A stretch of 53,876 nucleotides of DNA, counting the filler, from Jimgerdemannia flammicorona (taxonomy: Eukaryota): NCBI GenBank assembly GCA_003990765.1. It is 3 parts of 3 records of this genome, joined end to end, with 100 filler letters (N's around TTAATTAATTAA, not from the genome) between each part and the next. Parts side by side here need not be neighbours in the genome. Positions count along the whole stretch, not along the records: positions 35,986 to 53,876 come from RBNJ01002373.1; 2 more parts are not named here. One strand, given 5' to 3'. The notes under the pieces are model-generated. The model saw nothing but the letters and a program-made list of their open reading frames with translations. It was not told where the DNA came from and searched no databases. A program made the position numbers and the translations under genes. Below are positions 1 to 53,876 of this stretch, in pieces (positions within the stretch are counted from its first letter, which is position 1; each line of letters begins with the position of its first letter).

Positions 1-498
1 CCATTTAATCTAGGCTAGTTATTGTCTAGCAGCTTGATTATATCAGACACAGCAGAGCCTAAAGTGACCTATATCTCATTCTATACACCATACTCTCCCT
101 ACTACCAAAGAGAACTCAGCCATATATCAATGATCAAAAGTATATACTCAAAACTCCAACATATATATAAGACCATACTTGAGTCAAATAGAAAAGCCCC
201 TACCACCTCAAGGAGAATGATAGATAAAGAAAAAATTCTCATCAAAGTACATTATAGTAGATAGAACCTGGTTCTTCCAGTTAAGGTGAGTAAAGAACTT
301 ATATATGAGATGAGAGGAGACCCCCAATACCCCACTCCTCAAGTCTATAGGCCTCAATCATATTGCTATATCAGCTTCTAGTTTCAGTTGAGTATAGTTA
401 AGATGTCTAAAATAGATAGCCTTGGGCCCTCTGATCCCCCCCAATGACTAGAGCCTAACCTTATAAATTACCAAAAAAAGCTATAAGTGATACCTACT
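1..498 (-). mobile_element. Fragment of polyA retroposon family C (same family as 3709-4873)
   Basis: Aligns by eye to ~3815-4310 with mostly transition differences; abuts the Gypsy RNase H remnant. Confidence 0.8.
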
Positions 499-2110
499 AT
501 ATATCTACCTAGAGTTCATCCTGTAGATAGATATAAGTACTATAGGACTTGGAGCAGTTCTAGCTCAGAAGAAAGATAGATATAAATATATCATCTCTTA
601 TATAAGCTGAGATATTTGTAGAGCAGAACAAATCTATAAGTTATGCAAGCTTGAATACTTGGCAGTAGTTTGGATAGTAGACAAGTTCCACTACTATCTA
701 GCTGGGAAACACTTCTCTATTCAAACAGACCATTCTACTCTTGTCTGGCTATTCTATATACTAAACCCTAAAGGAATATATGCCAGATAGATCTACATGC
801 TGTAAGAGTATGATTATACTATCAAGCACTGCTCAGAGAGAACTAACACCAATGCTGATATACTTTCAAGGACACCTTGAAATACCTCCATCAAGACTAT
901 TCAATATGAATAAGAAGTTATACTATAAATTAATCAGCTATCTTAGACAGCAGAAGATGCCCAATCACCTCAAACCCTGGACAATCACTATTATCAACTA
1001 GACTTAGAAATAATTTGAACTAGATAACACTATACTCAGAAAAGGAGAAAAGCTTATAATATCTGAATATAAAAAGTATCAAGTAATAAAGGAAGTACAT
1101 GAATAAGGATACCTAGAAGAAATCAATACATATATATAATAAGGTAAGAAGAACTATATAGTAGCCCAAGATGGAAGAAGACCTGTACCAATTTGTCAAA
1201 GGGTGTAATAAGTATCAAAAACAGAAACAAGATCAGTAAGATCAGATATCTAAGTTATCAAGAATTCAGTCTATCCCCTTCTATTACATTATAATAGATA
1301 TCATTGGGCCACTACCAGTAACACTATCAGGAAACTACTACATTATAGTTATTGTAGACCTCTTTACTAAATAGATAGAAGCAGGAGTATTACAAGAAGC
1401 CAATGCCCTCTCTATAGCTGACTTCCTATACTGAGAAATCATCTGCCACTACAAGACACCAAGGCAAATCACCACAGATCACAGTATGGAATTTTTCAAT
1501 GGATTCTATGAGATAATATATCAGAAATATAAGATTCAGTACATTAAGATCACTAATATCACCAATATCACCCTCAAGAAAATGGACAGATAGAGAGAAT
1601 CAACAAGACTCTCAAGAACATCCTGGCAAAGATCTCAGACATATATGAGAATTAGGATAACTATCTCCCAACTGCCCTCTCTGTTCTATAAGATATATGA
1701 TCACAGAGTACACACTTTACCCCAAGAGAACTGCTCTTCAGAGAAGAAGATTCTGATAGAACTTTAACCACAAATCTAGACCTAACTTGGAGATAGGTTG
1801 ACTCAGAAATCCAGAGACTATACCAAATCAGAAAGAAGGCTGAAGATTACATCATCAAGTCATAAGTACTGATAAAGAAGAATATAGAAAAAAATTACAA
1901 GACCCTAGAACCCATCCAAATTAAAGAAAAGGTCCTACTGTATCAAAATATAGTAGAAGTCTCATGGTTATGAAAACTGGAGTCCAAATAGGAAGAACTC
2001 TTCTATGTGCAAGATATCAAGGAAACTACCTTCTGGCTTAGAAAAATCTCAGAGACTATACTGCCTACTACAGTACATAGAAACAGACTCAAGAAGTACC
2101 ATAAACCTAT
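499..2110 (+). pseudogene. Ty3/Gypsy pol remnant (RNase H + integrase) of element A
   Basis: FIL*IDISTIGLGAVLAQ (~515); LEYLAVVWIVDKFHYYLAGKHFSIQTDHSTLVWL (650); IDIIGPLPVTLSGNYYIIVIVDLFTK (~1295); YHPQENGQIERINKTLKNILAK (~1567); HRNRLKKY (~2076); many stops and frameshifts. Confidence 0.93.
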
Positions 2111-2634
2111 ATAAGAGAAGTAAAATATAATAATTACCTATGAGGTTCTAGTCCATGAATTGTAACAGTATGTCCTATGACTAGTAGGCAATCTGTCTGG
2201 ACCATTCTCTAAGAGATACAGCACCAGCAACTACTTATCCATGAGACTTTTGAAGCCAGAGAAGTTTGAACTATCAACTGATTAGTTAAGATCAGAATCA
2301 GGCCCTTGCTCTATATAAAGGAAGTGACCCTTCACCATCATGTCAAAATATATAGAGAAGATGCCAGTCTATAAATACCACTTTTTGACTCCCTACTAGA
2401 GGTTATGAGATCAGCAAATTTTTCAGGACTGGACCAATAAATAAGGATGTTCAAAAAGATTCTTATTCAGGAGAAAGATGTAACAGTGACCTCAAAATGA
2501 TAATATCAATACAGAAGACAGCCTTCCTTACAAGTCACCAGATCAGAGTACAAGAAGATTATATGATATAACTCATCTAGGCTACCAGATGAGCAATGAT
2601 GACCAACTGTGAGTTATTATAACCACAGTACAGG

Positions 2635-5289
2635 TATAAGTATACAATCTCCAAGCCACCAAAATCATATGTCATCCTTAGAACTAATTTGGAAACCATA
2701 TGTGAGACTATAAAACAAGTTACTGAAGAGATTACCTAGTTACACAAAATATGCCAGCAAGCATGAGAACCTACTGCCAAGATACAAGAATACCAGAAGA
2801 AGTACTATAACCATAAGACTAACCCTGAACTACTATAACTAGTTTTAGTATACCATACTATTACAAAAGAAAACTGAAGTACCAAACTCAAACTAGGATG
2901 AGAAGAACCCTATCTCATCTATCAAAGGTTCATGAACTATACTTATTAACTCAAGACTAAGATACACTGCAACTATATAAAGACCTCATTACTTAGTAGA
3001 AGCAAAATGTATTTGAACAACCCTATTTGCTCTATCTGTATTACCTCTGTTAGAGAATGATGGATGCTTTATCTGAACTCAAGAAAGCCAACATTGTTGA
3101 AACCAATCTCAAGCCCATCCACATGATAGATATGACTATTAGAAATTGTCTTAGATTATAGAAAATATCATTTCTGAGAGGTTTGAACCTCCAGCCATAA
3201 CATTGGGAGCCCTTGCCCTAGACAAGAATGGCCAGTCCTCATAAATATACCAGCAGTCCAAAAAAAAAAGAGAACCAAGACCTATTATCCTTATATAACC
3301 ACTATAGCCTTAATCTTATAAGAGATAGAGATGATAATACCTTTGAAACTAATGATGTTAGAAGTCAGAAAACTGCTCAGAAATAATATCATCAATAGTA
3401 ATATCATTAAAGACTACTCAGATAGCATCTAAATCTATAAATAGCTTAGCAGTCATAGTATAGTTATATTAGCCTTATATAACATAACTGTGAACTGACT
3501 TAGCAGTCAGATAATTCCTTAATATATCAGATCATACTTATATTATGTTACTGTATTCTGACTCAGCAAGGTACTAAGTACTATATTCATATTTAGTCTA
3601 GTCCAGATAGCCTCTCACTAGTATAAATACCCCCTCTTCCAGACCTTAAAATCTTAGACTCAAATATACAAGAATATTCCTGAATACTTCTCTACAATAT
3701 TCTTTCATTTTTTTATTTTATTTTATAGACTCAGAGTCCAGCAGATTTTTATTAGAAGGGAACCTAGACTATATAGACCAAAACTCTCTCCTACTACTCA
3801 TCAAGTACTGCCCCCCTATTAACCTAGGCTAGCTATTGTCCAGCAGCTTGACCATACCAGATACAGTAGGACCTATGGTGGCCTATACCTCATTCTACAC
3901 ACCATACTCTTCCTACCACCAGGGAGAACCCAGCCATATACCAATAACCAAAAGTGTATACCCAAGACCCCAATGTATGTACAAGACTATGCCTGAGCTG
4001 AATAGAATAGTCCCTACCACTCCAAAGAGAACAACAGGTAAAGAAAAACTCTCATCAGAGTATATCACAGTAGATAGAGCCTGGTTCTTCCAGTCAAGGT
4101 GAGTAAAGAACTTATATATGAGATGAGAGGAGACCCCCAATACTCTACTACTCAAGTCTGTGGGCCTCAATCACATTGCCATATCAGCTTTTGGTTCTAG
4201 TTAAGTACAGTCAAGATACCTGAAATGGGTAGCCTTGGGCCCCCCAATCCCCTCCAATGATCAGGGCCCAACCCACTAAATTACCAAAAGAAGCTAAGAG
4301 TAATACCTACCACCTAACCACTTCATACCAATCAAAAGGCCCCACCAAAACAGCATCTACCCCAGCCCCAATGACTGCCCCCAGCCTAGCATCCTACTGG
4401 TTCACTATAATCACTCTTTCTCCTATCTGTGACAGCCATCTCTTCTCCCATTTACCTATGCCAGAACTACACTTACCAGAAAGCTCACCAAAGCCAGAGG
4501 GCTCCACCATAGGCATTGAGGATCTGCAGGTAATCTATACTGGGCACTTGATGCCTAAGATTGGCTAACTCTCTATATAACCCATAATATACCAAGACAG
4601 TATCTTATTAGTAATGACAAAAGGAAGAAAGTGCCACACCAAAACAGATATACTCCAGATATAGCCAAAGATACCAGAAACTGTGAAAAAGTGGAGAAGA
4701 CACTGATTGGACACCAATAAAGGGGCAACTCATCACCACTGCCTCCCTCTCACTACTCTACAATAGATACAGCAAACCAACCTGAGGTAGAGGGGGTAAT
4801 AATTGTAGAAAGTAGACTTGGAAGGTTGTCTACTAAATCATTATGACTAGTAAGGTAGCAGAGAAAGAGACTGTACAATATTCCTTCATATAACTACTTC
4901 TAGTATAGCAATATTATGAATAACAAATAAATCTATTTAATAACCCACAAACTATTCTTAAGTAAATTTGCTCTCTGTTAGATCTCACTCTTAACTCTAT
5001 TACAAAATTTCCTAATTAGGTATTGTCTGCAGCAATATGCCAATTCAACTAAGCTGGTCTTAGTTTCTTGAACTTCCTGAAATACAGAAAATCCTGAATA
5101 TCCAGAAATAGTCCAAATAAGGACTTTGGTTGAGATATCAACCCAATCTTAAAATCAATAAGTGTAGAGGATATACTCTATATGAAATTGATCTTGATCT
5201 TAAGAAAACAGTCTTCCAGAATATCCAGAACTTCCAGAAAACCCTTTTAGAACTACATAATAGTTACCTTAACAAGTAACCCTCTTACA
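2635..5289 (+). repeat. 5' LTR of element B (interrupted by retroposon C)
   Basis: 2635-3708 plus 4890-5289 align to 8657-10142. Confidence 0.9.
3709..4873 (-). mobile_element. Polyadenylated non-LTR retroposon, family C (~1.17 kb)
   Basis: 16-bp TSD TACAATATTC(T/C)TTCAT at 3693-3708 and 4874-4889; T-rich tail at ~3708-3726 with AATAAA upstream on the minus strand; absent from the 3' LTR copy. Confidence 0.88.
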
Positions 5290-6169
5290 ACTTGGTAACA
5301 GTAGTTTACAATCCAATTCTGCTTCAAGACACTTTCTCACCCCACTACAAACCTCTCTGAGAATTTCTACAAGTTGGTATAAAGCCCAACCTCTGAACTA
5401 GAATTTATCCTGAACTATCTGACAATCTGGAGAGAATTGAATCTGATATATAAGGAAAATTTGACCTCTATACCTGTAATAAGTGGGACAGACTTCATTC
5501 AAAGAAAGAAGTACTCTAATTAAATCAGCAGATAGGTGAAACCCTATACACCAAACTCCTTGCTCTACACCCTGTAAGTCAAGATGAAGAAGGTCTTATA
5601 GAAGTCTTCTTTACTCTTCTCAATAAGAGTTTTATCAGCTCCACAAATCTGAGTGACTTAGGATAACTAGCAGCAGTCTTTCTAGTCTTAGTTCCTCATG
5701 AAGTCCAAGCCTCCATAGCCAAGTAGCTCAACTCTACCAACTTTCACTGTACCAGAACCAAGACCACATTATACTACCAATTTCAGAATAGTAAGACCTA
5801 CTATATTCTTAAGGAAGAAGCAAGACAAACCCTTCATCAACAATCTGACTCTGAACCAGAAGCAGGCTCTGCTATAGCTCTACCTGAACCTAAAACCAAT
5901 ACTAAACCAGAACTTGACTTTGAATTAAGTCTATCTGAAATCAGATATATAACTAACTCTGTCTACTTCAATGCTAAATAAATCCAACTATATGGAAACC
6001 AAGCTGAAGAAGAGGAGGAGTATCTTAGTGAATTCAATCCTGGATATACCACAAAGGAGATGCACCTCTATCAGGACAGAACACACCTATACAGCAACAA
6101 ATAGCTAATTATTGAGCCCTTACTCCAGACCCATAACTACTACTCCAGTAATTTATACAGACTCAAAGA

Positions 6170-7215
6170 ACACCCTCACATTCTGCACTAGTACCTCAAG
6201 TAGTACTGATAATACTACTACCAGTAGTCCAATCATCTCTAGCAAATAATATAGCAAACCAACAGATTCTAGATCTCACAGCCCAGGTAGCCATAATGGT
6301 AGCAACCATTACTGCCTTAGCTGAACAGACCCAACCTATCAAAAATCTGAGCCTACCTATCTTCAATAGTACTGCACAAGAAGTCCAAAGCTTCATTAGT
6401 ATAGTTAATACCAACTTTGAAGCCAATCAATAAACCAATGAGTGAGTTGCTGACTGCTTTCTGATAAATGATCAAGATCACACTCTGGAACAACTCTTTG
6501 CTGCTACTACAGCCTATATTCATCAAGTTGTTACATTCTTCTGAGAACCTGCTGAAGAATAATAGCAAACCCTTTCTGAAAAACCCCTCACATAGGACAC
6601 TTGACCTGCAATTGTTACCCAGAATACAGCAAATAATGCCCCAGAATATGGAGCCCATCCTGTAACTCCTGGACTCAAACAACTCATGATTACTGAATCT
6701 TAAGTCAAACTCCATAATCTCAAATTTGATATATATGGCAAGGAAGAATTTGAAACCTTCTATACAAAACTTAAGTTACTCCTGAATACTATTGGCCTAG
6801 AATATATTGCCAATGATGAAGTATGAAATAGTACAAGAGCAGACCATCTATTTAATGTACTATCTGAATGGCTTATAAGAAAAATCTGAGAACAAGGATA
6901 CTCAGTTAGTTGTGATTACCAACAATAGTGCCTGGTAAGAATCAAGACTATAGTTAAGTGAATTCTGACAACTGGACCAATTCTGCCTCAAAGACAATTC
7001 AACAATAAGAAAAAGACTTGGACTAAGAAAGAAGAACCCAAGTATGAAGCATCCTGAGCTCTCTTTATATCCATCTCTTGGATACCCTGAAATCATAAAC
7101 CTACCCAGCCAAGTACCTTCAAGAAACTCACTGAAGGAGAAAGAAATGAACTTTGAAGAAGCAGAGTATACTTCTATGCTGAAAGATAGGACACATAGCC
7201 AGTGCCTACCCTAAC
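6170..7215 (+). pseudogene. gag remnant of element B
   Basis: Broken frame with LPIFNSTAQEVQSFISIVNTNF and a decayed zinc knuckle YFY..KIGHIASAYP (~7168-7210), upstream of dUTPase and protease. Confidence 0.6.
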
Positions 7216-7289
7216 TAAAAACTCTGAACAGCAATATGAGCAACTGTTACTACTCTATACCATCTCAACAATCTGACTATCAAGACATT

Positions 7290-7700
7290 GAACTTTGTCA
7301 AGTTAAGGCAAACTACCAAGGCCCCAATCAAAGGAAGTCAAAAGACAGCTGGATACATATGACCTATATGCAGTTGAAGAAGCTATAGTTTCCAACTGAG
7401 AAGTCAAGCAAGTCTATACAAGAATTAGCATCCAAATCCCTGAAGGACATGTTGGAAGAATATGCTATTGCAGCAGCCTAGTATTGAAAGGACTCTCAGT
7501 AGAAGGAGGAGTTATTGATAAAGATTACATAGGTGAAATTATTGTCCTCATCCAAAATCATAGTTGGACATCCTTCAAGATCCCTATTGGTTTCTGTATT
7601 GTACAGATTCTATTTGAGAAAATCAAATCAACCCTGATAGTTAAGGAAGTCCCTGAACTACTACTCACTATCCAAGGATCCAAAGGATTTGACTCATCAA
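7290..7700 (+). pseudogene. dUTPase domain of element B (decayed)
   Basis: TAGY/DLYA, ISIQIPEGHVGRI..SSL..KGLSVEGGVIDKDYIGEIIVLIQN, GFCIVQILF, TIQGSKGFDSS match the trimeric dUTPase motifs. Confidence 0.88.
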
Positions 7701-7929
7701 ACAAGGCTCCAGCCCAACTTACTATGAGCAAAAAAGAACAATTCTATAAGAAAATTGAAGATAGATATATACTCAGTGGCCAATACTCCCATGGTATTAG
7801 AATGTACTCTTCTCAAATGATTGGTGATTACTTCTTTTGTGTCAATGAACTGGCTCAAAGAAGAACTAACAGAAGAAAAGCTCTTACAATTAAAATCATC
7901 ACTATTAGATCAGACAAACTACTTACACT

Positions 7930-8260
7930 TCAAGCTTTTGTCAACTGAGTATCTGTCAAGATTATGATAGACAGTAGTGTCTCAGGCAACTTTATCAATA
8001 AAGAAACAGCCACAGACTCAAGGTCCTGATATCTCTGGTACAACAAACTCAAGCAGTTGCTATAGCTAATGGAACCTTTTATGTCATTAGCAAGGAAGTC
8101 CACAACCTGCCCTTCTGAATTGGTAACTACCAAGTACATATTACCCTCTAGATCATACCACTTCCTGATAATGAAATCATCCTTGGAACCCTATGGTTAA
8201 AATAAGAGAACCCTATAATTGATTGGGTAAACCATTCTCTGATCATCAAGAAAAGACATC
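7930..8260 (+). pseudogene. Aspartic protease remnant of element B
   Basis: KIMIDSSVSGNFIN (decayed DSGA) at ~7958 and ILGTLWLK*ENPIIDW at ~8180. Confidence 0.8.
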
Positions 8261-8529
8261 ACAACTTCAAACTGTAAGGTAAAAAAGACTCACTCAGCTC
8301 TAGTAACTCTGGACCAAAGATCACCCATATAAACAAGCTACAGCTCAAGAAATTGGCCAAGAAATGCTCTCTTTTTGCCATCTCCATCCACCCATCCAAA
8401 GGAGAATCTGAGAACTCTGAAGAAGACTTTTCCAAAGTTGACAGCTATATTAGACCCTTACTCTAGAAAGTCTAAGATACAATTCTGAACTGAACTACAA
8501 AACCACCTATACCTGTTATTATTAATAAC

Positions 8530-8625
8530 TAAGAAGAATATAAATTTGAATAAATTCTCAACAAACATAGCCACAAGAACCATCCAAATGGTACAACAAT
8601 ACTAGATCAAATTAGAAGGCCTCAA
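8530..8625 (+). pseudogene. Chromodomain remnant just upstream of the PPT
   Basis: EEYKFE*ILNKH...QQY*IKLEG resembles EEYEVEKILDHR...YLVKWKG. Confidence 0.55.
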
Positions 8626-8656
8626 TGAGGATATCAAAAGCTAAAAAGGAGAGAGT

Positions 8657-10142
8657 TGTAAGCACACAACCTCCAAGCCACCAAAATCGCATATTATCCT
8701 CAAAACTAATTTGGAAACCACATATGAGACTACAAAACAAGTTACTGAAGAGATCACCTAGTTATATAAAATTTACTAGCAAGCACAAGAACTTACTACT
8801 AAGATACAAGAATACCAGAAGAAGTACTATAACCACAAGACTGACCCTGAACTACTACAACTAGTTTTGGTATACTGTACTATTATAAAAGGAAACTGAA
8901 GTATCAAACTCAAACCAGGATAAGAAGAACTCTATCTCATCTATCAAAGATTCATGAACTGTACTTATTAACTCAAGACTAAGATACACCACAACTATAC
9001 AAAGACCTCATTACTTAGTAGAAATAAAATACATTTGAATAACCCCATTCACTTTATCTGTATCATTTCTATTGAAGAATGACAGATGTTTCATCTGAAC
9101 TCAAGAAAGCTGACATTGTTGAAACCAATCTCAAGCCCATCTATGTGATAGATATTACTACTAGAAATTGCCTCAAATTACAGAAAATATCATTTCTGAG
9201 AAGTTTGAACCCTCAGCCATGACATTGGGAGCCCTCATCCTAGATAAAGATAGCCAGTCCTTACAAATATGCTAGTAGTCCAAAAAAAAAAAAAAGAACC
9301 AAGACCTGTTATTCTTATACAACTATCACTACCAAGGACAGCCTTAATCTTACAAGAGATAGAGATGATGATACCTTTGAAACTGATGATGTCAGAAGTC
9401 AGAAAATTGCTCAGAGATGATGTCATCAATAGTGATATCATCAAAGACTACCCAGACAGCATCTAAATCTATAGATAGCTTAGCAGTCATAGTATAGTTA
9501 GATTAGCCTTATAAAATGTGACTGTAAACTAACTCAGCAGTTAGATGATCTCTTGATATGTCAGATTACACTTATAATATGACTATATTCTAACTCAGCA
9601 AGATACTAAGTACTATATCTATATTCAGTCTAGTCCAGATAGCCTCTCACTAGTATAAATACCCCCTCCCCTGGACCTCAAAATCTCAGACTCAAATACA
9701 TAAGAACATTCCTGAATACTTCTTCACAATATTCCTTACACAACTACTTCTAGTATAACAATATCATAATAATAAATAAACCTATTTAATAACTCACAAA
9801 CTACTCTTAAGTAAATCTGCTCTCTATTAGGTCCCACTCCTAACCCTATTACATATGAAATTTCCTAATTAGGTATTGTCTGCAGTGATATGCTAATTCA
9901 ACTAAGCTAGTCTTAGTTTTTTGAACTTTCTGAAATACAGAAAATCCTAAATATCCAGAAATAGTCCAAATAAGGACTTTGGTTGAGATATTAATTTAAT
10001 CTTGAAATCAATAAGCATAGAGGATATACTCTATATGAAATTGATCTTGACCTTAAGAAAATAGTCTTCCAGAATATCCAGAACTTCTAGAAAATCCTTT
10101 CAGAACTATATAATGGTTATCCTAATAAGTAATCCTCTTATA
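8657..10142 (+). repeat. 3' LTR of element B
   Basis: TGTAAG start after the PPT; CTTATA end followed by TSD ACAGG; TATA-like GTATAAATACCCC at ~9653. Confidence 0.92.
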
Positions 10143-11699
10143 ACAGGCATCTTGAGGAATATAAAAGAAAGACTAAAGAACTGTAGTAGCAGTAACTCAA
10201 TAAGACCCACCAATTCCAAAATAGCTCAAAGACTTACTATAAATAAAATGCTTACTACTTACCAAATCTCAAGGTCAAGGAACTATTAAGATATCTCAGT
10301 CAAAGAAAGGATGTTCTAAGATATCTGAAGAGCCATAAGAACCTACACTATAAGGACTCCTAGTGTCAACCTGGGTACCAGGAATCCTTATTATTTTATT
10401 CTCTACCATTATGAAATAGAAATAAGGATCACCATTACTACTAAATATCTCCAAATATAGCAGGAGTACAAAATAAGAAACCTTCTCTACCAGAAGTTCC
10501 TACAGGCCAGTCCTCAAGAGTTACAAGATGCCACTTCTATGGATATATAAAACAAGGATAGCTAAGAAGATTCATCAGATCTTCAGACATGTACTATGGT
10601 CAATCTCCAACTTGGAGTATGTTAGAGTCTCAGACTTCAAAGATCTGTCAGCCTGCTATATCAATGCACTAGAAGCCAGAGTGGCTACAGAAGTCCAGTC
10701 TACTATCACCCTCAATAGTGATGAAGTAGAAGACTTCTGATATCTCATCCTCCAGGATAACTCAGATCAATTCCTGCAAGAATTGATCTCAGTATTTTAA
10801 GGCCCAAGCATCCAGGTTAGATCTTCCCAAGACCCTATATTTGTTTCTTATTTTGTAGAAGAGAACCTCATAGACTGGAGAGCCCCAGATCTCCTCACTC
10901 TCTCTACTGCTGCCAAACATGATAATGTTATCAGTGATGATATCATCTTATATAATATATACAAACTATATGATATATATATGCAAAATGAGCAATCTAT
11001 GATGAGACTGAAATATTCATAGATCTCATCTCCTTTAGTAATAATGAAGATAAAGCCTCTATAGTTCTGAACATTCTGCTCTAAGTCCCTTGGTTATACT
11101 GAATTATACCAGCATTCTTTTCCTGTGTAACAGCTGTTCCTCTACTGGTATTCTGATCTTGTGTAACTTAGAATTATTTCAGCACTCTTTTTCTATATTA
11201 TTAAAATTATACCAGCATCCTGAATATCTATGCCAATACTAAAACTTAGTAGTTTTCTATATTCTAGTATTTTATTTAGTTATTGGAATTTATATTTAGC
11301 TTTATATCTTAACAACTATTGAATTATATTTTGTATAAATACCCCTCTTATTTCCTTCAAAATAAAGTCAGTCTACTTAGTATAATATATACAATTCCTT
11401 GTAAGCAATCTAAAGAGATAATAAGATAGTTTAAAGATAAGAAGTTTGAGAACTATAAGACTTTGAGAAGGTACTTCAATAAGAACTTACTTATAACAAA
11501 CTTGAGTTAGTCTAAGAGATATATATATCTTGAAGAGAATCTGATATATTTGAAATTCTTAGTGACTACTATATAACAATATATATGTATATATATATAT
11601 TCACATTTATGTTTATGAATATATCTATGAATATTTTCTCTTATGTTCTTCTGTTTATATATATAAGTGAATTATATGATAAGTTTCATTTGTTTATAG

Positions 11700-30572: not shown

Positions 30573-31279
30573 CGTGTGGGCGAAGGTGTGATGGTCGTTC
30601 GTCAGGGTGGTTGTTGCGGAGGGTGTCGAGGAGGCAATGCAAATCGATTGGGACTATCGAAACTAATTGGTAGCCTACGCAAGGTCATTTACCTTTTCGA
30701 TTCTTTGTGAGGCATTCCGATATAAAAGCAACTTTGTTCTAAGTTTAGGTCGTCGCCAAAGCCATGCGGAACTCCCTTACCACCATCTCCGTCACGCACG
30801 CACGGACCCGACGTTTTGATGGTTCTGTCGGGCTATCCGATTGTGGGAGCGGTTCGACTCTGTAACCGCAGGATCAAAGTCGCCGACAGCAGCATCTTGT
30901 GCAGGGTGAATGTCATTTGCGACCTATCTGGATAGCCAGGAAGGCGGGAGGACAGCGAAAAATGGAACGGAAGACGTCGCCAGGCTATGAAGAACGGCAT
31001 CAGTAGCGGCTATGTCGTGCCAGGTTCGGGGCGCCGGCGTGCAATACGTTAGAGCTGTGGAGTTGAGCGGAGGAGGGGAGGCGAGCGTTTTGATAGCCAG
31101 ATGAGGGATCCGTTTACGAAAGAAACCTGGTTCACGATTTCACGCTATCCCCCCAGTTATGAGAGATCGCACAAGAGAGCTACAAGCGGTCTTGCCCAAC
31201 TCGTCCTCACCCCTACCCCTCTTTGCCTTCGTCCCTCATTCGCCCCCCTCATTCGCACATGCGAGGAGAGATTTCAATA

Positions 31280-34200
31280 TAGTATATAATAAGTGATTGG
31301 ATAGATCTGATGGTAGAATAGAAGTGGCTCTATCTCTAGAGTTGGCAAGATGACTGGAGGTAGAAAGAAAGATGGGTTTGATAGATAGTATTTGGCAGCA
31401 ACCACTGCTCCTTTCTCTACTACTATATTGGTCACAAGGTTTTGGCAGGCAACCTTCCAAATCCCCTTTCCCTTCTTTTACCCCCTCTACCTCAGGTTGG
31501 TTTGCTGTACCTATAAGGGCATGGTGAGAAGGAGACAATGGTGATGAGTTGCTCCTTTATCAGTGTCAGATTAGTACTTTCTTTATCTTTTCATAGTTTC
31601 TAGTATCTCTGGCTACATCTGAGGTATATTCATTTTGGTACAGTGCCTTTTTTCTTTTGCCATTGTCAATAATATATTATCTCAGTATGTCACAGATTAT
31701 ATAGAGAGTCAGCTGATCTTGGATATCAAGTACCAGTATAGGTTACCTGCAGGTCCTTAGTATTTATAGTGGAACTTTCTAAGTTTTGACTAAGTATAGT
31801 TCTGGTATAGATAACTGTTTCTTGGGTGAGGTCAGAATGGAAGAGGAGATGGCCATTACAGATAAGTAGAAGGATAATTACAGTAGACCAGTCAGATGTC
31901 AGGCTAGTGATAGTTATTGAGACTGAGACAGATACTGTATTGGTGGGGCCTTCTAATTGATATAGGATGGTTAGATAATAAATATCACTCTTGACTACTT
32001 TTAGTAATATATAGAGTTGGGCTCTAGTTATTAGAGATAGTTAGGGGGCCCAAGACTATCTGGATCAGATATCTTAGCTATACTTAACTGAAACTAAGAG
32101 CTGATATAGTAATATAATTGAGGGCTCCTTTTTTTACTATCTTACTAGTTACAATAATTTGATAGGTAACCTTTTGAGTCTACTTTTCATAATTAATACC
32201 CCCTCTATCTTAAGTTAGTTTACTGTACCTATTGTAGGGTAGTAGAAAAGAGACAATAGTGATGAGTTATCTCTTTATTGATATTAGATCAGTATCTTCT
32301 CTACTTTTTTATAGTTTCTAGTACCTTTAACTATATCTAGAGTATACTTATTTTGGTGTGGCACCTTCTTCCTTTTGCTATTATCAATAAGGTATCATTT
32401 CAGTATATTATAAGTTATATAGAGAGTTGATTGACCTTGAGTATTAAGTGTCCAGTATAGGTTATCTACAGGTTCTCAGTATCTATAGTGAGATCCTCTG
32501 GCTTTGGCAAGTTTCCTGGCAAGTACAGTTCTGGCATAGGTGACTGTTTTTCAGATGATGTCAGGATGAGAGAGGAGATAACTATCATAGATAGGAGAAA
32601 GAGTGATAACAGTGAACCAGTAGAATATCAGACTGAAGATAGTTATCAGGGCTGGGGCAGGTACTACTTCAGTGGGACCTTTTAATTGATACAGAGTAGT
32701 TAGGTAGTAGATATCACTTACAGCTTCTTTTGGTAATTTATAGAGTTGAGTCCTAGTTATTGGAGAAGATTAGGGGGTCTGAGGCTATCCATTTCAGATA
32801 TCTTAACTATACTCAACTGAAACTAAGAGCTGATATATGTAGTAATATGATCAAGGCCTGTAGACTTGAGTAGTGGAATATTGAGGGTCTCCTCCTATCT
32901 CATATATAAGTTCTTTACTTATCTTATCTGGAAGAACCAGGCCCTATCTATTATGATATACTTTGATGAGAGTTTTTTCTTTATCTCTCATTCTCCTTAA
33001 AGTGACAGAGACTATTCTATTTAGCTCAAGTATGTTCTTATATATATATTGGAGTTTTGGATATATACTTTCAGTCATTGGCATATGGTTGAGTTCTCCC
33101 TGGTAATAGAGAGAGTATAGTATATAGAATAAGGTACAGACTATTATAGATGAGGAGGAGGAAGGCCCAGTGGGAGCCAAGAGAGCAAACCTAGAGTCAG
33201 TATCAAAGCAAATGGAAGACATATAGAAAGGCATGTATAAGGGGGATGAATAAAGAATGTAACTGAAAATGTATCAGCCGTTTATTGCCACATAAAAACA
33301 TGGTCCTTATATATAAAATATGACATCTCAAAAGAGAGGACACACTACAACTTAGGGTGAACCAAATTAGGAACCACATGACCACCAGAGATAGGCAGAG
33401 ATAAAGGGGATTAACTCTCCTTTTATCTCTACCTATCTCTGGCAGTCATGTGGTTCCTAATTTGGTTTGCCCCGAGTTGTGGCACATTCTCCCTTTTGGG
33501 ACGTCATATTTTGTATATAAGGACCACATTTTTATATGGCAATAAATAGCTGATGTATTTTTGGTTATATTCTTTATTTGTCTCTCTTATATATGCCTTT
33601 TTACATATCTTCTATTTGCTTTGACACTGGCTCTGGGTTCACTCCCTTGGCTCCCACTGGGCCTTTCTCCTCCTCTTATATATATGTTGGAGTTTTGAAT
33701 ATGTACTTTCAGTCATTGGCATATGGCTGAGTTCTCCCTGGTAATAGAGAGAGTATAGTATATAGAATAAGGTACAGACTGTTACAGACTTTTCTGTATC
33801 TGATATAGTCAAGCTACTAGATAATAGCTAGTCTAGATTTAATGGAGGAATGATACTTAATGAGTAGTAAGAGAGAGTTTTAGCCTATATAGTCTAGATT
33901 CTCTTCTAATAAAAATCTGTGGAACTCTGAGTCTATAAAATAAAAAAAAATAAAAAAAGCAATATAATTGAGATCTACAGGCTTGAGTAGTGGGGTATTG
34001 GTGATCTCCTCTCATCTCATGTATAAGTTCTCTACTCACCGCATTAAGGAGAACCAGATCCTATCCATCATTCTGTATTTTGAAGAGAGTTTTTCTTTAT
34101 CTATCACTCTACTTGAGATAGTAGAAACTATTTTATTTGACTTGGATATAGTCTTATATATATATATATATTGGGGTTTCAGATATATACTTTTAATTAT

Positions 34201-34430
34201 TGACATATGGTTACTTTCTCTCTAATAATAGAGAGAGTATAGTATACAGAATGAGATGTAGGCTAATATAAGCTCTACTATACCCAGTATAGTTAAGTTA
34301 CTAGATAATAGCTAGTCTAGATTTAATAGAGATATAGTGCTCAGGAAGTGGTGAGGAAGAGTTTTGGCCTATATAGTCTAGATTTTCTTTCAATAAAAAT
34401 CTATGAGACTTTGAGTCTATTAAAAAAAAT
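31280..34430 (+). mobile_element. Cluster of three family-C retroposon copies (~31280-32120, ~32125-33960, ~33960-34430)
   Basis: Reverse-complement matches to 3709-4873; AATAAAAATCT...GAGTCTAT plus A tails at ~33908-33958 and ~34392-34429. Confidence 0.82.
33152..33675. repeat. ~524-bp near-perfect palindrome (foldback element) centred on TTAA at ~33411
   Basis: GAGGAGGAGGAAGGCCCAGTGGGAGCCAAG... mirrored by ...CTTGGCTCCCACTGGGCCTTTCTCCTCCTC; arms ~260 bp with almost no loop. Confidence 0.93.
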
Positions 34431-34439
34431 ATATATATA

Positions 34440-43427: not shown

Positions 43428-45010
43428 TGTCATATAGTAGTTGCTGAGTCCTTCAAATACATCAGATTCTCTTCAAGGTATATCTCTTAGACTAACTACA
43501 AGTTTGTTATAAGCAAGTTCTTATTAGTGTACCTTCCCAAGGTCTTATAGTCTTCAAACTTCTTATCTTTAAACTGTCTTGTTATCTCTTTAGATTGCTT
43601 GCAAGGAAATGTGGGTAAGTGAACTTGACTGACTTTATTCTAGAGGAAATAAGAAGGATATTTATACCAAATATAATTCAATGGTTGCTAAGATATAAGG
43701 CTAAATATAAATTTCAATAACTAAATAAAATGCTGGAACACAGAAAACTACAGTTGTCAGTACAGATTCCAGTATTGGTACAGATAGTTATACAGGTTCA
43801 GGATGCTGGTATAATTTCAGTGATACAGGAAAAGGGTGCTAGAATAATTCTGAGTCACATGAGGTCAGAATACTGGTGGAGGAATAGCTGTTATACAGGA
43901 AAAGAATGCTGGCATAATTCAGTATAACTAAGGGACTTAGAGCAGAATATTCAGGACCATGAAGACTTTATCTTCATCAGAGGTCAGGATGTCTTTGAAG
44001 GAGATGAGATCAATTTCATTCATTTTATTACATATGTTGCATATTTCACATACTTCATACATTTCACATATGTCATGCAGGATGAGATCATTGCTGATGA
44101 TGTCATCATGTTCAGTAGTAGGAAAATTGGGGGCTCTCCAATCTATGAGGTTCTCTTCTACAAAATAGGAAACAAATGTGGGGTCTTGGGGTGGTCTGAC
44201 CTGGATGCTGAGACCTTGGAATGTAGAGATCAATTCTTACAGAAATTGATCTGGGTTATCCTGGAGAATGGGATACCAGAACTCTTCTAGCTCATCACTA
44301 TCAAGGGTGATAGTGGACTGGGCTTCTGTTGCCACCCTGGCTTCTAGTGCATTGATACAGTTGGCTGACAGATCTCCGAAGTCTATGACTCTAGTATACT
44401 CCAAGTTGGAGATCAATCATGGTGCATGTCTGAAGATCTGGTAAAACTTCTTAGCTGTCCTTGTTTCATGTATATCCATGAGAGTGACATCTTGTAACTC
44501 TTGAGAGCTGGCCTGTGAGAATTCCTGGTAGAGAAGATTTCCTATTTCATACTCCTGCCACATTTGGAGGCACTTGGTAGCAATGGTGATCCTTGTTTCT
44601 ATTTCATGATAGTAGAGGATAAGTGATAAGGATCTCCAGTACCCAGGTTAAGGCTAGGAGTCCTTCTTGTATAGGTCCTCATGGCTCTTCTGATGTCTTG
44701 AAACATTCTTTCTTCGACTGAGGGGCCTTGAAGGTTCCTTGACCTTGAGGTTTGGCAAGCAGCAGGTATTTCATTTATGGTAAGTCTTTAGAACTATTTC
44801 TGTGAGCTTGTTTGGATTACTACTACTGTGGTTTCTTAATTCTTTTTTTATATTCCTTGAGACATCTATCTTGTATCACAGTTAGTCATCATTGCTCATC
44901 TTGTAGCCTGGGTGAGTCATATCATATGATCTTCTTATGCTCCAATCTGGTGGCTTGTAAGAAAAGACTGTCTTCTGTGCTGATGTCATTATTCTGAGGT
45001 CACTGTTACA
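43428..45010 (-). repeat. Solo LTR of Gypsy family A (1583 bp)
   Basis: TG...CA ends; reverse complement matches 2479-2634 + 10148-11578; ATAT on both sides (43424-43427, 45011-45014). Confidence 0.88.
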
Positions 45011-48795: not shown

Positions 48796-50236
48796 TGTAA
48801 TGTGCCGGCTCAATGGAGGCAAATTACTAGGTTGGGGGTTGATGTAGTTTGGCTTGAGCCCCCAGTTACTTTGTTAAAAGCAACAAAATGTTCTTGGTGT
48901 TTAGCAGTATAATAGTCAAGATCTGGATACTGTGCGAGCGATTTCCTTATTGGGACTGTTCTCTGGGTGTAGCGGCGATTTGTGTGTGAATGGACTTCCT
49001 TCTTGGGTCAACTGGGAATGCCACAATAATTTGTGTAGTGCGACGATCTCCAAAAGTATGCAATCTCTGGGTGTGACGGTCTGGCAATTTAGCGGTTCTC
49101 CTTCTTGGGTGACGGTCTCTGATTTCTGCGTGACGATCTCTGTGTAGCGCAGCAGATTCCTTATGTGGGAGGTTCTGATAATTCGGCGGATGACTCGATT
49201 TGGGTGCGGGTTTACTGGGAATGTATGGCGTGGGTTCTCCTGTCTGGGAATAATGCTGGCGGCGGATTTCTTCTCGGGCTCACTGGGAACGACGAATAAC
49301 TCGGAAGGTGCGAATCGGGCTCTTCTGGGAATGATAGCTCGGGTGACGCGGGCTTTCTGGGAATGCGGACAACTTGAAAATGGTGGATGATGCGGATTTG
49401 GTGGGCTTCTTGGAAACGGCGGCTTAACTGGGAATTAACTCGGATGGCGTAGATTTGGCTTCAACTGGGAATATGGTGGATAACTCAAAAGTGGCGGGTG
49501 ATGCGAATAACTCGGATAACTCAGATTCTTCCCGAATCGGCGGGCTTCTAACTGGGAAACGGCGGCAAAGTTCTTCCTTGAACTTGGGTGGCAAACTTCA
49601 GGCTTATCTGGCAAGCGAACCAATAGTTCCAAAGGCGGCGAAGTTCTTCCTTGAACTTGGCGGCAGAATCAGCTTTGTATCGGAAAGTGGACCAGAGTAG
49701 AAGAGAAGAGAACCAAGCTCACAACTTCTTGACAGTGGCTCGTTGGCAGGCGTATCTCCTAAGTGTTGCAATCCTTCCTGGATCAAGTGGCTTTTGGCAG
49801 GCGTTTCTCCTAAGTGTACCAGACAATTGACTTTTGCTTTGGTTTGTATTCAACTTTCGGACTGAGGTTTTATTCACTCTCACCACTGGGGTAATTTATA
49901 CAAGTTGGTTGCTATCTGGTTACTATGTGGCTAATTATACATTTGCTATCTTTGGTATTGTTTGGGTGTGTCCTCTGGGTACAGGTGTGTCCACAGGACA
50001 TGAGTGTGTCTGCAGGACATGAGTGTGTTCGCAGGACATGAGTGTGTCCGCAGGACATGAGTGTGTCCTCAGGACACAGGTAAACAATCCTGATCTGGTG
50101 TCTTGGCTAATTATAAGTGTGGCGGGCATGAGTAACTATGATACTCTGGAAGTCACATCATGCTGAGTAAGTATGCTAATTGTTCGCGTCATCTGGCTAG
50201 GTTATAATTCAGGTGGTACGTTTTTGGTCTGTTACA
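48796..50236 (-). repeat. Relatively young solo LTR, family D (1441 bp)
   Basis: TGTAA...TTACA ends; 4-bp TSD CTAG (48792-48795, 50237-50240); CpG retained; minus-strand GTATAAATTACCCC at ~49887-49900; internal CAGGACATGAGTGTGT tandem at ~49990-50075. Confidence 0.85.
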
Positions 50237-50329
50237 CTAGGAAATATAATATAAATTAATCTCTCTGAGATATTATAAGATAAGATCATGATGTGGTACA
50301 GGACCTTTCTCTGGTACAATTCACGTTAC

Positions 50330-53300
50330 ACAAACTTCAAGTAATAGTTTTTTGACACAACTAGGAGTAAAGGTATTATAAAAAGGTCATCGAGCAAGAG
50401 TTCTGATTGACATGCTGGGTCGGGTGGACCTGGTGCTTTTAGCTGGCAGCATGTTGGGAGAGGGTATGGATTGGGGATGGGGGCTTTTGGAGAGTCAAAG
50501 GGTGGCAAAGACTCTGGAGGAGGACTGGTGTCAGGTGGATCTGGGGGAAGGCCTGGTCTTTCTAGCTTTGCTGACAAGGTGAAGGTGGGTGGATGGCCTG
50601 TTGGAACTAGGGCTGGTGCTGTGGAGGGAAAGGGCAAGACTAGTATCAGGAGGGAGAGTGGCCCTCAGGGAGGAGATGGGAGCATAGGGGCTGGAGGGAC
50701 TGTGGCAGGGGGTGTGACTGTTGATGGGAGTGTTATGGGGGATCTGGAAAAAAAAAGAGATGTGATGGCTGATGGCCAGGTGAGGCAGGGGGTCCCAATG
50801 CAGAAGGGGGACCTGGCGGATGGTGTAATGTGGCTGGCAGTGGCCCCATTACTCAAGAAATCAATCTTGGAGTTTGCAGCGACTCTGTGCTTCCAGGGCT
50901 TGGTGGTGACAGTGAGGATTATATTGGGGCTGATTTTGAGGCAGGTGGCTGGGGTGGCCTCAGTGAAGTTTCTGAAGGGGCTGGAGGGGGTTGAGGTGGG
51001 CTTTGAGGAGGCGGGCATGCTGGATGAGGCTCTGAAGGCTGGAGTGGTGGTTGGGGAGATAGTGGCCCTATGGTGCATTGCCTGAGGTGGGACCCCAGGG
51101 TGGTATTGCTGCTGGTGAAGGGTGTGCCTACAGTGATGGTAGTCGAGATAAGGAGGAAAGTTGAGGAGGTGATGGCAGAGTATGGCGATGTGGTGGATAT
51201 TGGCTTCCAGATTTAGAAGGGGACCACTATAAGGACTGGGGATGTTGATGTCAAGATTCAGCTGGCAGGGAAGGAGGCTACTGGGAAGTTGAGTGACTGG
51301 CTGGCAGTGATGATGTGAGGGGCTTTCAGCTGTCAAGTGTTGAGGGTGAAAGAGAGTGAGGAAGAGGAGGAGGATCTATTAGAGGCACTGGAAGAGATGA
51401 GTGGAGCTGTCAAGCAGAGAGCGAAGGCCTGGAAGAAATATGTAGAGTTGACACACTTGGAGATTGTAGAGGGGAAGCATATCCACACTGACAAGAAGCA
51501 GTGGGAGTGGGCCCAGGGGCGAAAGTGACAGAGGGAGCTTTTCATGAGTATGAAAGGAGGGGAAGAGAAGAAGTTGGATGGGGCTGTCAAGTCTGGAGGC
51601 ATTGAGGCCAATGTCTGGGCTGGTAAAGGAGGAAAGGAGGTGGTGGCAAACAAGGAAGGGGCTGGGAAGGTGTTGGACAAGGATCCCTATACCGATGGTA
51701 CATTCGAAGTTTGGGAGCAGGAGCTGGATGGCACCCCCCCCCCACTTATCAGGAGGGGCCCAGTTGGGAAGAGAGGGGTAGCAGAGGATGTGCTGATAAA
51801 GGGGGCCCAGCGAGTTCAATTTGGGGTCCCTGATGTGGTGAAAGGGGGCCAGGTGGTGGCGGTTGGTGAGGATGAGCTGGTGGATGTCCCAGAGGAGGAG
51901 TGGGATGAGGCTGCCAGTGTGGGAGCTGACACCATGATGCTGGATGCTGGGTTGCCAGGGACCCCTGGAGGGAAGGAGGTGGGGAACCTGCTGTGGATGA
52001 GCAAGGTAATGGATAACCTCGTGGCTGAGGCATTGGGAGAAGTTGACCTGCGTGTGATGCCAGAGGAGCATTGGGTACAGATTCTGTATGGAGATGGAGT
52101 GATGGAAGCACTGAAGGTAGAGATTCTTGCAATCTTCCTAGAGGAGGAGAGATATGAGGTTGATGAGGTGAGGAAGGTGGAGCTGGTAGTTGTCACTGGT
52201 GAGTGGGCTGCCTATTGTTGGGCAGAATATTATGGTTTGCAGCTCTGGCAGGAGGCCTGTCTGGAGTATTATGAGGACTTTGAGGAGAGGGAAGATGGGG
52301 TGATGGTGGAACTGTTGGGAGGGTTGGAGGCACAGGAAGCTGGAGAAAAGGAACTAGCTGCTGAACAAGTCTTGGACTTGGTGCAGGAGGAACCAGATGC
52401 AGACTTATAGAGGATGGGATCATTACTTGACATTATTTCCTATGAATAGTACAACCAACATTTTCTCTTTGAATGTAAATGGGTTAAGGGGATCTGGGTG
52501 ATGTAAGAACATTTTTACTTGGCTCAAAGGATTGGAGGCTGATCTCTTTTTACTACAGGATGTACGGTGTGAGGATGAGGATGATTGGGTGGAGTGGACT
52601 AGGGAATGGGGGGGGGCTACTGCTTGGTTTAGAAAAGTGGCGATTCTGGTAAGGAAGGGTAGAGGAGACTTGGGAGGAATCAGGAACTGGGGTGATCACT
52701 TCATCTGGGGAGACTGGCATCAGCCAGGGTGGGAGTCGGTGAGGGTTGGCTCTTGCTACTGCCCAGCAGTAAGGGGTGAGAGGACTGTGTAGATTAAGGA
52801 GCTGCTGGAGAAAGGTATTCTCTTGGAGAAAGGGGTTGATGTTCTTGGTGGGGACTTTAATATGGTTCGGGATCAGCATCTCGACAGAACTGATGGAGGG
52901 AGGAATGTAGGGGGGAGAAGTGGAGGTCTGGATGTATGGGAGGAGGTGAAGAATTTGAGTTCCTTAGGGGATATGGGCAGGACATGGTGGGGCAACACCA
53001 GGGTCTACACACATTGGGTGAATGGTCTGAGTACAACAGGTAGATGGGTGGGGGAACAGGACCTTGGGCTGGTGATGCTGCTCTACAAAAACAAAGGAAG
53101 GCAGGAGGATTGGAGGAACTGGCAGCCAATAATGCTGCTTGATATGGACAGAAAGTTGGTAACTAAGGTGGTGGTGGCGAGACTACAGAAGGTGGCCCAG
53201 CAAGTCATGGGTGTTGAGCAGAGGGGATTTGTGGGTGGTCGGCTCATCAGGGATGGCACAGTCTGGGTGTATGGCATCATTGAAGGGGCGAGGGCATGTG

Positions 53301-53876
53301 GACTGGATGGGCATCTAGTTTTCTTGGACCAGGAGAAGGCTTATGACTGGGTGCAGAGAGTCTGGCTGGAGAAAGTTTTGGATAGAATGGGGGTACCGCT
53401 TCGATTCCAGTCAACAATAGTCAGCCTACTGGAAGGGAGCAGGGCTGTGCTCATGTGTAATGGACATAGAGGGGTAGCATTTCCCTTGGGAAGGGGAGTG
53501 CCTCAGGGGGATCCTTTGTCCCCCATTTTATATGCTCTTTCCCTGGAACCACTTATGGACCGGATTAGGCAGAGGATAGTGGGGCTCTCTGTCTTTGACA
53601 TAGGATGGAAGGTTGGGGCCTTTGCTGATGACATAGTGGTGGGCTTGGGTTTGATTGCTGATGTTGAGGAGCTCAAGAGGACTGTGGAGTGGTATGAGGA
53701 ACATTCTGGAGCTAAGCTGAATTGGCATAAGTGTGAGACGATGGTGCTAGGTAATGGCCTGGTGGGAGGGGAGGTTATAGGAACAATTGTCCCCACTGGT
53801 GAAGCAGTGTGGTACTTAGGTATCTACTTATCAGTCTATGGGTCAGTTTTGCCCAAGCTTTGGTGGGAGCAGAGGA
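50330..53876 (+). mobile_element. L1/Tx1-like LINE: broken ORF1 (~50471-52410) and ORF2 (from 52442; APE endonuclease + RT), runs off the window
   Basis: SLNVNGLR, DLFLLQD, GGDFN; RT: LLYKNKG..DWRNWQPIMLL, QRGFV, LDQEKAYDWV, GVPQGDPLSP, FADDI, SGAKLN, YLGI. Confidence 0.93.

What the first reader, a model, noticed from the sequence alone, without database searches (positions are those of the whole stretch)
43937..45010. Cryptic ~300-codon accessory ORF inside the U3 of Gypsy LTR A, recoverable from two copies
Seen: the solo LTR (minus strand) reads ...YYHEIETRITIATKCLQMWQEYEIGNLLYQEFSQASSQELQDVTLMDIHETRTAKKFYQIFRHAP*LISNLEYTRVIDFGDLSANCINALEARVATEAQSTITLDSDELEEFWYPILQDNPDQFL*ELISTFQGLSIQVRPPQDPTFVSYFVEENLIDWRAP... 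The second copy (10150-11080) has sense codons at both of these stops (TGG, CAA) and its own breaks lie elsewhere. The consensus extends upstream through PSVEERMFQDIRRAMRTY, possibly to an ATG about 22 nt into the LTR. The frame ends upstream of the LTR TATA box, so it lies in U3. Established: U3-encoded genes exist in retroviruses (MMTV sag, HIV nef) but are not a standard part of fungal Ty3/Gypsy elements. Inference: an unrecognised accessory gene expressed from the 3' LTR copy.
Basis: partly seen in the sequence, partly recalled or inferred. Interest (0 to 1): 0.75.

Follow-up and report, generated by a model that had tools for sequence, protein, structure and literature searches.

The report
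Self-promoted gene inside fungal retrotransposon LTRs
The terminal repeats of a fungal jumping gene carry a real protein-coding gene of unknown family, apparently with its own promoter and traded between retrotransposon lineages, although both copies in this window are broken.

Summary
Real. Window 43428-45010 (minus) is a 1,583-nt solo LTR (TG..CA, 4-bp target duplication) of a roughly 8.8-kb dUTPase-bearing Ty3/Gypsy family. Its U3 holds a gene of about 270 codons (44769-43937). Both window copies are broken, but 39 of 150 listed genomic copies have no stop in the matched stretch. Selection is clear: dN/dS 0.12-0.43 against a sister family, tail length in frame in 53 of 56 copies, homologs down to about 30% identity. 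The start lies at LTR nt 242, 83-89 nt behind a TATA box. Four retrotransposon families in this genome carry the gene, each with a TATA-like box 62-89 nt before the ATG. Three have it in U3; one has it between integrase and the polypurine tract. Its tree conflicts with the RT tree, so the cassette was probably swapped between lineages. No known family or fold matched. The protein has a basic N-terminus, a helical core and an acidic tail. Best guess (untested): an early nuclear activator of element transcription, like foamy-virus Tas. The scan has noted such LTR genes many times on other pieces of this genome.

The parts
43428..45010 (-). Solo LTR A, 1,583 nt, TG...CA, flanked by a 4-bp target-site duplication
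44846..44852 (-). Internal TATA box (TATAAAA), 83 nt before the start codon; putative promoter of the U3 gene
   Evidence: present in 54 of 56 copies, 80-89 nt before the start in 51 copies; similar box in the three other families; function inferred
43937..44769 (-). U3 gene, copy A, about 270-277 codons, broken: start reads ATA, frameshift near 44622, stops at 44419 and 44239
43659..43666 (-). Main LTR TATA box near the end of U3
   Evidence: 48 of 56 rows, 5 rows lack the region; role inferred from position
43634..43639 (-). AATAAA polyadenylation-like signal, marking the inferred R region
   Evidence: AATAAAG in 45 of 56 rows, 6 lack the region; role inferred
507..2478 (+). 3' internal region (integrase end and polypurine tract) of a family A element
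   Evidence: 84-85% identical to the internal region of full elements L031, L032, L037; polypurine tract next to TG at 2479
2479..2634 (+). First part of LTR A copy B (the 3' LTR of that element)
2635..10142 (+). Unrelated LTR element nested in copy B, with a 5-bp target duplication and a dUTPase at 7400-7948
10143..11578 (+). Rest of LTR A copy B
10160..10166 (+). Internal TATA box of copy B
10248..11085 (+). U3 gene, copy B, broken by at least six stops and a frameshift near 10546

Best explanation
Shown: LTR A carries a selected gene of about 270 codons in U3, one member of a protein family shared by at least four Ty3/Gypsy families of this genome. Inferred (about 75%): the gene is its own transcription unit. 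A TATA box 62-89 nt before the ATG drives a short unspliced mRNA that ends at the LTR's AATAAA, so 5' LTRs, 3' LTRs and solo LTRs could all express it. Inferred (strong): the cassette moves between lineages by recombination near the 3' end, and the position of the polypurine tract decides whether it falls inside or outside the LTR. Inferred (about 45%): the protein is an early nuclear trans-regulator. A basic N-terminus and a helical core would bind the LTR or a host factor there, and the acidic, hydrophobic, length-variable tail would act as an activation domain that switches on the main LTR promoter, as foamy-virus Tas does from its internal promoter.
For: Gene: 39 of 150 listed copies have no stop in the matched stretch (counted from the table; best-scoring copies, so biased). 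No fixed stop in the frame (at most 14 of 30 rows), against stops shared by 30 of 30 in both other frames. 111 of 119 stops fall at Gln or Trp codons. Tail length is in frame in 53 of 56 copies and 21 of 24 distinct lengths, against 8/7/7 in the non-coding control. dN/dS is 0.12-0.43 between families A and 2 and 0.14-0.45 within family 3. Homologs reach 28-91% identity. Promoter: TATA-like box in 54 of 56 family A copies, 9 of 13 family 2 regions, 18 of 18 family 3 loci with enough flank, and 11 of 11 family 4 loci with a located ATG. Family 4 keeps it although its gene lies outside a 0.81-kb LTR. Swap: RT tree (2,3)|(A,4) against protein tree (A,2)|(3,4), with starred support. Family 2 pol is 67-80% identical to family 3 and 30-41% to A, while its U3 protein is 63% identical to A and 33% to family 3. 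Protein: net charge +5 to +8 in the first 45 aa of families A and 2, tail -14 to -26 with 25-34% bulky hydrophobics, no transmembrane stretch, helical core modelled at pLDDT 74, pTM 0.69.
Against: No recognised DNA-binding fold was assigned. The folded core is itself net acidic (-6 to -17), and the basic N-terminus is weak in P0015 (+1). A/T-only motifs escape cytosine deamination, so TATA retention within one family says little; other A/T 7-mers were kept in 1-50 of 56 copies. 25 of 51 copies have an out-of-frame ATG 5 nt before the start; the alleles there fit decay of a CG, which is an inference. The within-family substitution test on copies chosen by DNA alone was weak (omega-like 0.62-0.75, with noisy controls). 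The tree conflict was not put through a one-clade test. Family 2 and 3 LTR boundaries rest on a polypurine tract plus TG start, with no two-LTR element seen.
Confidence: 0.45

Rival explanations
1. Same gene and promoter, but the protein is an anti-silencing factor. It blocks host chromatin silencing or DNA methylation of the element, like VANC of plant Mutator elements, possibly as a decoy for a histone-deacetylase complex.
For: Copies are strongly CpG-depleted (observed/expected 0.03-0.41), so silencing pressure is real. Five of the top 11 rows of the wide fold search are Sin3 chains (Z 3.1-4.0, rmsd 4.5-6.0, 91-102 residues aligned). Exchange between lineages fits an arms-race gene. VANC as anti-silencing factor: PMC13547354, passages.
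Against: Those Z values are at background level by the tool's own calibration. The protein evolves under purifying selection with no sign of fast change in the core. An acidic activator-like tail is not needed for this role.
Confidence: 0.22
2. The protein is a post-transcriptional regulator, an RNA export or stability factor like Rev, Rem or CERV, using the arginine-rich N-terminus to bind element RNA.
For: Arginine-rich N-terminal 45 aa in families A and 2. An LTR retrotransposon precedent exists in CERV of Cer1 (PMC10309623, abstract).
Against: No evidence here that these elements splice. The arginine cluster is weak in P0015. CERV comes from a spliced mRNA, not from an internal promoter.
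Confidence: 0.13
3. One reading: the gene is read only from the 3' LTR copy on a spliced or subgenomic RNA from the main promoter, and the upstream TATA-like words are incidental.
For: ORF3s of LTR retrotransposons are typically expressed from spliced messages (PMC5408684, passage). One route to MMTV sag is a spliced mRNA (PMC12789967, passage).
Against: A TATA-like box at nearly fixed distance in four families whose upstream DNA is otherwise unalike, followed by an A/C-rich leader without ATG apart from the one site noted.
Confidence: 0.12
4. The protein acts on the host cell or on competing elements (copy-number control, incompatibility, proteolysis adaptor), for example through the conserved C-terminal Pro-x-x-Leu-Asn-Phe motif or a HECT-like surface.
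For: The short C-terminal motif is kept after a variable acidic linker in families A, 2 and 4 and in P0015 and P0026. The ESM Atlas feature search gave HECT clusters at 0.91-0.93 for one copy.
Against: Recognition in that search was low (1693, below 2300), and a second family member gave no HECT hit. The motif is not evident in family 3.
Confidence: 0.07
5. Not a gene of its own: a chance open frame or a leftover gag/pol fragment.
For: Both window copies are broken, and the within-family substitution signal is modest.
Against: Cross-family dN/dS far below 1, in-frame indels, homologs at 30% identity, and no profile hit in gag or pol of five elements.
Confidence: 0.01

Closest known systems
MMTV sag (PMC12789967, passages read)
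   Same: A whole ORF inside U3; MMTV also has extra promoters in U3, about 415 and 650 nt upstream of the main one, able to transcribe sag.
   Different: Sag is a type II membrane protein of an animal retrovirus. This protein has no transmembrane stretch, and the element is an env-less Ty3/Gypsy retrotransposon.
Foamy-virus Tas/Bel1 and its internal promoter (PMC12789967, passages read)
   Same: A 3' regulatory gene with its own promoter, separate from the LTR promoter; proposed working model. That Tas has an acidic C-terminal activation region is recalled, not looked up.
   Different: The Tas promoter lies in env, outside the LTR. No sequence or fold match was found here, and transactivation is untested.
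Additional ORFs of LTR retrotransposons: plant aORFs such as Grande gene23 (PMC7264820, parts 1-2 of 3 read) and rotifer ORF3s (PMC5408684, passages)
   Same: Extra selected gene near the 3' end; gene23 has its own promoter and is nuclear; rotifer ORF3 types are shared between distant lineages. Family 4 here has exactly the pol-to-LTR position.
   Different: Those ORFs are described in the internal region, often antisense or env-like. In families A, 2 and 3 the gene is sense and inside U3, so it is duplicated with the LTR and left in solo LTRs.
Fungal Ty3/Gypsy elements with dUTPase between protease and RT (PMC2864245, PMC6431247, passages)
   Same: Same pol layout as family A.
   Different: No U3 gene is mentioned in the passages seen; supplements were not read.
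CERV of C. elegans Cer1 (PMC10309623, abstract only)
   Same: Accessory nuclear protein of an LTR retrotransposon.
   Different: Made from a spliced mRNA and works in RNA export; no similarity shown here.

Membership tests
LTR of a Ty3/Gypsy retrotransposon | TG...CA ends and target-site duplication | tested here: met
   40 of 56 copies had both ends located; all 11 without a primer-binding site or purine tract have an exact 4-bp duplication
LTR of a Ty3/Gypsy retrotransposon | Paired repeats around gag-pol, with primer-binding site and polypurine tract | tested here: met
   5 of 15 fetched regions hold two LTRs, 8.3-8.9 kb, 87-90% identical; 14 copies are followed by a shared TGG-type site and 15 are preceded by a purine tract
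LTR of a Ty3/Gypsy retrotransposon | Domain order PR-RT-RH-IN | tested here: met
   RVP_2, dUTPase and RVT_1 by Pfam; RNase H and integrase follow RT, recognised by recalled motifs in the translation and not scanned against Pfam
U3-encoded gene (sag-like placement) | Whole ORF upstream of the main TATA box and R | tested here: met
   ORF at LTR nt 242-1074, main TATA near nt 1345, AATAAA near nt 1372; the U3/R border is inferred from motifs, not mapped
MMTV Sag | Type II transmembrane superantigen | tested here: not met
   highest 19-residue hydropathy 0.46-1.07 in five members
Foamy-virus Tas | Sequence or fold homology to Tas | tested here: inconclusive
   no Pfam, PDB or BFVD match at E<=0.001; absence from fold lists does not exclude it
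Foamy-virus Tas | Expressed from an internal promoter | tested here: inconclusive
   TATA-like box at conserved distance in four families; no transcript data
Foamy-virus Tas | Binds DNA and activates the LTR | not testable with these tools
   needs binding and reporter assays
HECT ubiquitin ligase | HECT profile match and fold | tested here: inconclusive
   Atlas feature hit with low recognition, not repeated; no PF00632 hit in 24 members at E<=1; not listed in fold searches
env-like ORF3 | Transmembrane segments | tested here: not met
Selected protein-coding gene | dN/dS below 1 and frame-keeping indels | tested here: met

The most novel reading that the evidence does not exclude
These fungal retrotransposons run a complex-retrovirus-style early circuit from inside the LTR. 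Each LTR, including the many solo LTRs, is a complete gene (promoter, ORF, polyadenylation signal) for an activator or anti-silencing protein of a new fold, and the cassette is traded between distant Gypsy lineages. LTR-LTR recombination would then not remove the element's regulator but leave trans-acting copies across the genome.
Probability: 0.35. Interest if true: 0.85.

Novelty: new variant of a known kind. Interest (0 to 1): 0.62.

Why it matters
LTRs of retrotransposons are annotated as non-coding, and solo LTRs as inert leftovers. Here the LTR holds a selected gene of an undescribed family, probably with its own promoter, at high copy number in one genome. Family 4 shows the same gene outside the LTR, which gives a direct model for how U3 gains genes (a shift of the polypurine tract). 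If the protein activates or de-silences elements in trans, it would help explain the retrotransposon expansion in this 231-Mb genome and give a fungal parallel to complex retroviruses.

Tried and rejected
Pfam on single copies and on 24 aligned members: nothing at cut-off; best ATG5_HBR, E 0.0063, in 6 of 24. PDB sequence search with the profile: 0 hits at E<=10. Phage records: no match. Longer or fused forms of 600-2000 aa: none among 8,000 scored candidates, weak evidence. First structure model was poor (pLDDT 55) and its three fold searches gave only long-helix matches. The core model (pLDDT 74) gave no Foldseek hit at E<=0.001 in BFVD and no Z>=5 in the two VIA-align searches; a plain Foldseek PDB list was not run for it. 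This does not show that the fold is new. The ESM Atlas HECT lead was dropped. RNA runs: no RNA holder listed, so no reads were laid. Homodimer prediction: no verdict. Viral-contig scan could not be seeded from the deep alignment. Metagenome scan: 1 locus from 83 pattern matches. The ATG near LTR nt 22 was rejected. Literature: ten searches (listings only unless a paper is cited as read) showed no description of a U3 gene in a fungal Ty3/Gypsy element. The library lacks most subscription papers and repeat databases, and no supplements were read, so this is not proof of absence.

Full report
Observation. The quoted peptide is on the minus strand, with stops at 44419 and 44239 and the terminal stop at 43939-43937. 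Copy B has sense codons at those two places and its own breaks elsewhere. Copy A also has a 1-nt frameshift near 44622 and an ATA at the start position, 44769. The ATG near LTR nt 22 closes after 5-38 codons in 51 of 52 copies. Copy B is a 3' LTR: integrase end and purine tract at about 507-2478, LTR start at 2479, a nested element at 2635-10142, and the rest to 11578.

The element. A DNA search of the own genome (231 Mb, 35,354 contigs) had 3,979 candidates, scored 40 and listed 43 matches, all but the window's own at 79-89% identity. Of 56 copies, 40 had both ends located: 11 solo LTRs, all with an exact 4-bp target duplication, 14 followed by a primer-binding-like site, and 15 preceded by a purine tract. 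Five of 15 longer regions hold complete elements of 8.3-8.9 kb with LTRs 87-90% identical. Pfam gives a weak zinc knuckle, protease, dUTPase and RT. RNase H and integrase follow, recognised by recalled motifs. This is a Ty3/Gypsy layout; a dUTPase in that position is known in fungi (PMC2864245 and PMC6431247, passages). The host lineage was not tested.

The gene is real. A protein search listed 150 of 152 matches, and 39 have no stop in the matched stretch, 36 of them with open frames of 280 codons or more (counted from the table, biased to the best copies). Natural proteins from the ATG are about 270 aa. In the 30 rows chosen by DNA similarity (29 loci plus window copy B), no stop in this frame is shared by more than 14, while both other frames have stops shared by all 30. 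Of 119 stops in the 29 loci, 111 lie at Gln or Trp codons, as C-to-T decay would give. The acidic tail varies from 114 to 225 nt yet keeps the frame in 53 of 56 copies and 21 of 24 distinct lengths (binomial p 6e-8; 26 of 29 and 13 of 16 in the DNA-chosen set). The stretch after the stop splits 8/7/7. Copies are related, so the p value is optimistic. Against a family 2 copy from a metagenome contig (L106), dN/dS is 0.12-0.17 (NG86), 0.24-0.31 (LWL85) and 0.30-0.43 (YN00, 5 of 6 pairs converged). Within family A the signal is weaker because of decay after insertion: omega-like 0.62-0.75 with noisy controls. Transition distances by codon position in 11 element regions are 0.124/0.097/0.158, like RT (0.102/0.079/0.143) and unlike non-coding LTR (0.094/0.093/0.091). 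The family profile hits only the LTR or 3' position in five elements, never gag or pol.

The family. Searches gave 6 proteins among 316 candidates, 5 at E<=0.001 among 1.84 billion representatives, and 12 at E<=10 with the wider profile, 11 of them strong. All are unnamed or hypothetical, on contigs under 5 kb from JGI and ENA sources. Using them as queries showed three more families in the own genome. Family 2: three copies follow an integrase tail and purine tract, others have unrelated flanks. Family 3: the gene starts about 205 nt into a repeat of about 2.4 kb, which follows RT-RH-integrase and a purine tract in four elements. Neither family was seen as a two-LTR element. Family 4: the gene lies between integrase and the purine tract, once per element, and the 0.81-kb LTR starts just after its stop.

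Promoter. A TATA-like box precedes the ATG by 80-89 nt in family A (54 of 56 copies), 65-70 nt in family 2 (9 of 13 regions, and L106), 62 nt in family 3 (TATTTAA, 18 of 18 loci with enough flank) and about 72 nt in family 4 (11 of 11 with a located ATG; 12 loci). DNA similarity between LTR A and family 2 is confined to the gene, and none was found to family 3. So the shared position carries the weight, not retention within a family, since A/T words escape deamination. In LTR A the order is internal TATA, gene, main TATA, AATAAA, which makes each LTR a possible complete transcription unit. This is an inference; no transcript was seen. An out-of-frame ATG 5 nt before the start in 25 of 51 copies looks like decay of a CG (inference). 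An earlier scan note had proposed an own promoter (e1-7624659); the counts here are my own.

Exchange between lineages. Family 2 pol is 67-80% identical to family 3 and 30-41% to family A, but its U3 protein is 63% identical to A and 33% to family 3. The RT tree splits (2,3) from (A,4); the protein tree splits (A,2) from (3,4), both with starred support (12 and 17 rows, none left out, no one-clade test, a long-branch warning on the RT tree). The simplest reading is recombination of a 3' cassette. The window shows a parallel case: the nested element's LTR holds a captured family 2 integrase tail, purine tract and LTR start.

Protein. The core (aa 16-214 of the family 2 protein) folds at pLDDT 74, pTM 0.69: a short helix, a 37-residue helix, a bundle of short helices and a C-terminal hairpin. 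There is no transmembrane stretch. The first 45 residues are basic in families A and 2; the tail is acidic, hydrophobic and predicted at low confidence. No family or fold could be assigned (see Tried and rejected). Sin3 chains recur weakly in the wide fold search (Z 3.1-4.0, rmsd 4.5-6.0), at background level.

Mechanism. Most likely an early gene: the internal promoter makes a short mRNA, and the protein acts in the nucleus to raise transcription from the main LTR promoter, like foamy-virus Tas from its internal promoter (PMC12789967, passages). The Tas comparison was prompted by an earlier scan note (e1-7508684). The gene and its selection are shown; the promoter is about 75% likely; the activator role about 45%. 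Rivals are anti-silencing (22%), RNA export (13%), expression only by splicing from the 3' LTR (12%), and action on host or competing elements (7%).

Comparison and novelty. A whole ORF in U3 with extra U3 promoters is known from MMTV sag (PMC12789967, passages). Extra ORFs between pol and the 3' LTR, some with their own promoter or shared between lineages, are known from plants and rotifers (PMC7264820, parts 1-2 of 3; PMC5408684, passages). Passages of a fungal survey (PMC3248453) mention only gag and pol. Passages of PMC13547354 and PMC6338049 and the abstract of PMC10309623 showed no U3 gene. Ten searches found no fungal Ty3/Gypsy U3 gene, within the limits of the library; supplements were not read. 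It is therefore a new variant of a known kind: an accessory gene of an undescribed family in an unusual place. The scan has noted such genes many times on other pieces of this genome; those notes are not independent support.

Noticed in passing
window 8793-9404 and 2783-3375 (inside both LTRs of the nested element 2635-10142): The nested element's LTR contains a captured piece of a family 2 element: integrase tail, purine tract and the first bases of the family 2 LTR. A second case of 3'-end material ending up in U3.
   Followed up: partly
L164:980-1282, L170-L181: Family 4 carries the same family 2-like 3' piece upstream of its gene, with what looks like a relic LTR start. This suggests its gene was once in U3 and the purine tract moved behind it; direction not tested.
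   Followed up: partly
L037:3838-4908, L109, L149, L172; window 7400-7948: All four families and the nested element have a dUTPase in pol, upstream of RT where RT was seen.
   Followed up: partly
L037:7480-7858: About 380 nt conserved between the integrase stop and the purine tract of family A, with a possible short open frame in the translation; not analysed.
   Followed up: no
window 44983-44990 and first 60 nt of family 2 and 3 LTRs: CRE-like words (TGACGT or its deaminated forms) near the 5' end of the LTRs, a possible enhancer or response element.
   Followed up: no
L124:2888-3800, L107-L119: Families 2 and 3 have long, internally repeated regions after the AATAAA; family 3's LTR is about 2.4 kb and the end of family 2's was not delimited.
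   Followed up: partly
window 1-508, 3706-4874, 31407-34431: A third LTR family with tandem and inverted copies; the family profile found no homolog of the U3 gene in it.
   Followed up: partly
window 23113-25293 (minus): 726-codon frame with a 7-residue repeat (21-nt tandem array at 24430-25000) and C-terminal ankyrin repeats.
   Followed up: no
window 27330-30653 (minus): Tandemly duplicated protein-kinase genes, the second one truncated.
   Followed up: no
window 49500-53876 (plus), L120, L038, L042: A purine-skewed non-LTR retroelement (endonuclease and RT frames seen in L120) that is often inserted in the Gypsy copies.
   Followed up: no
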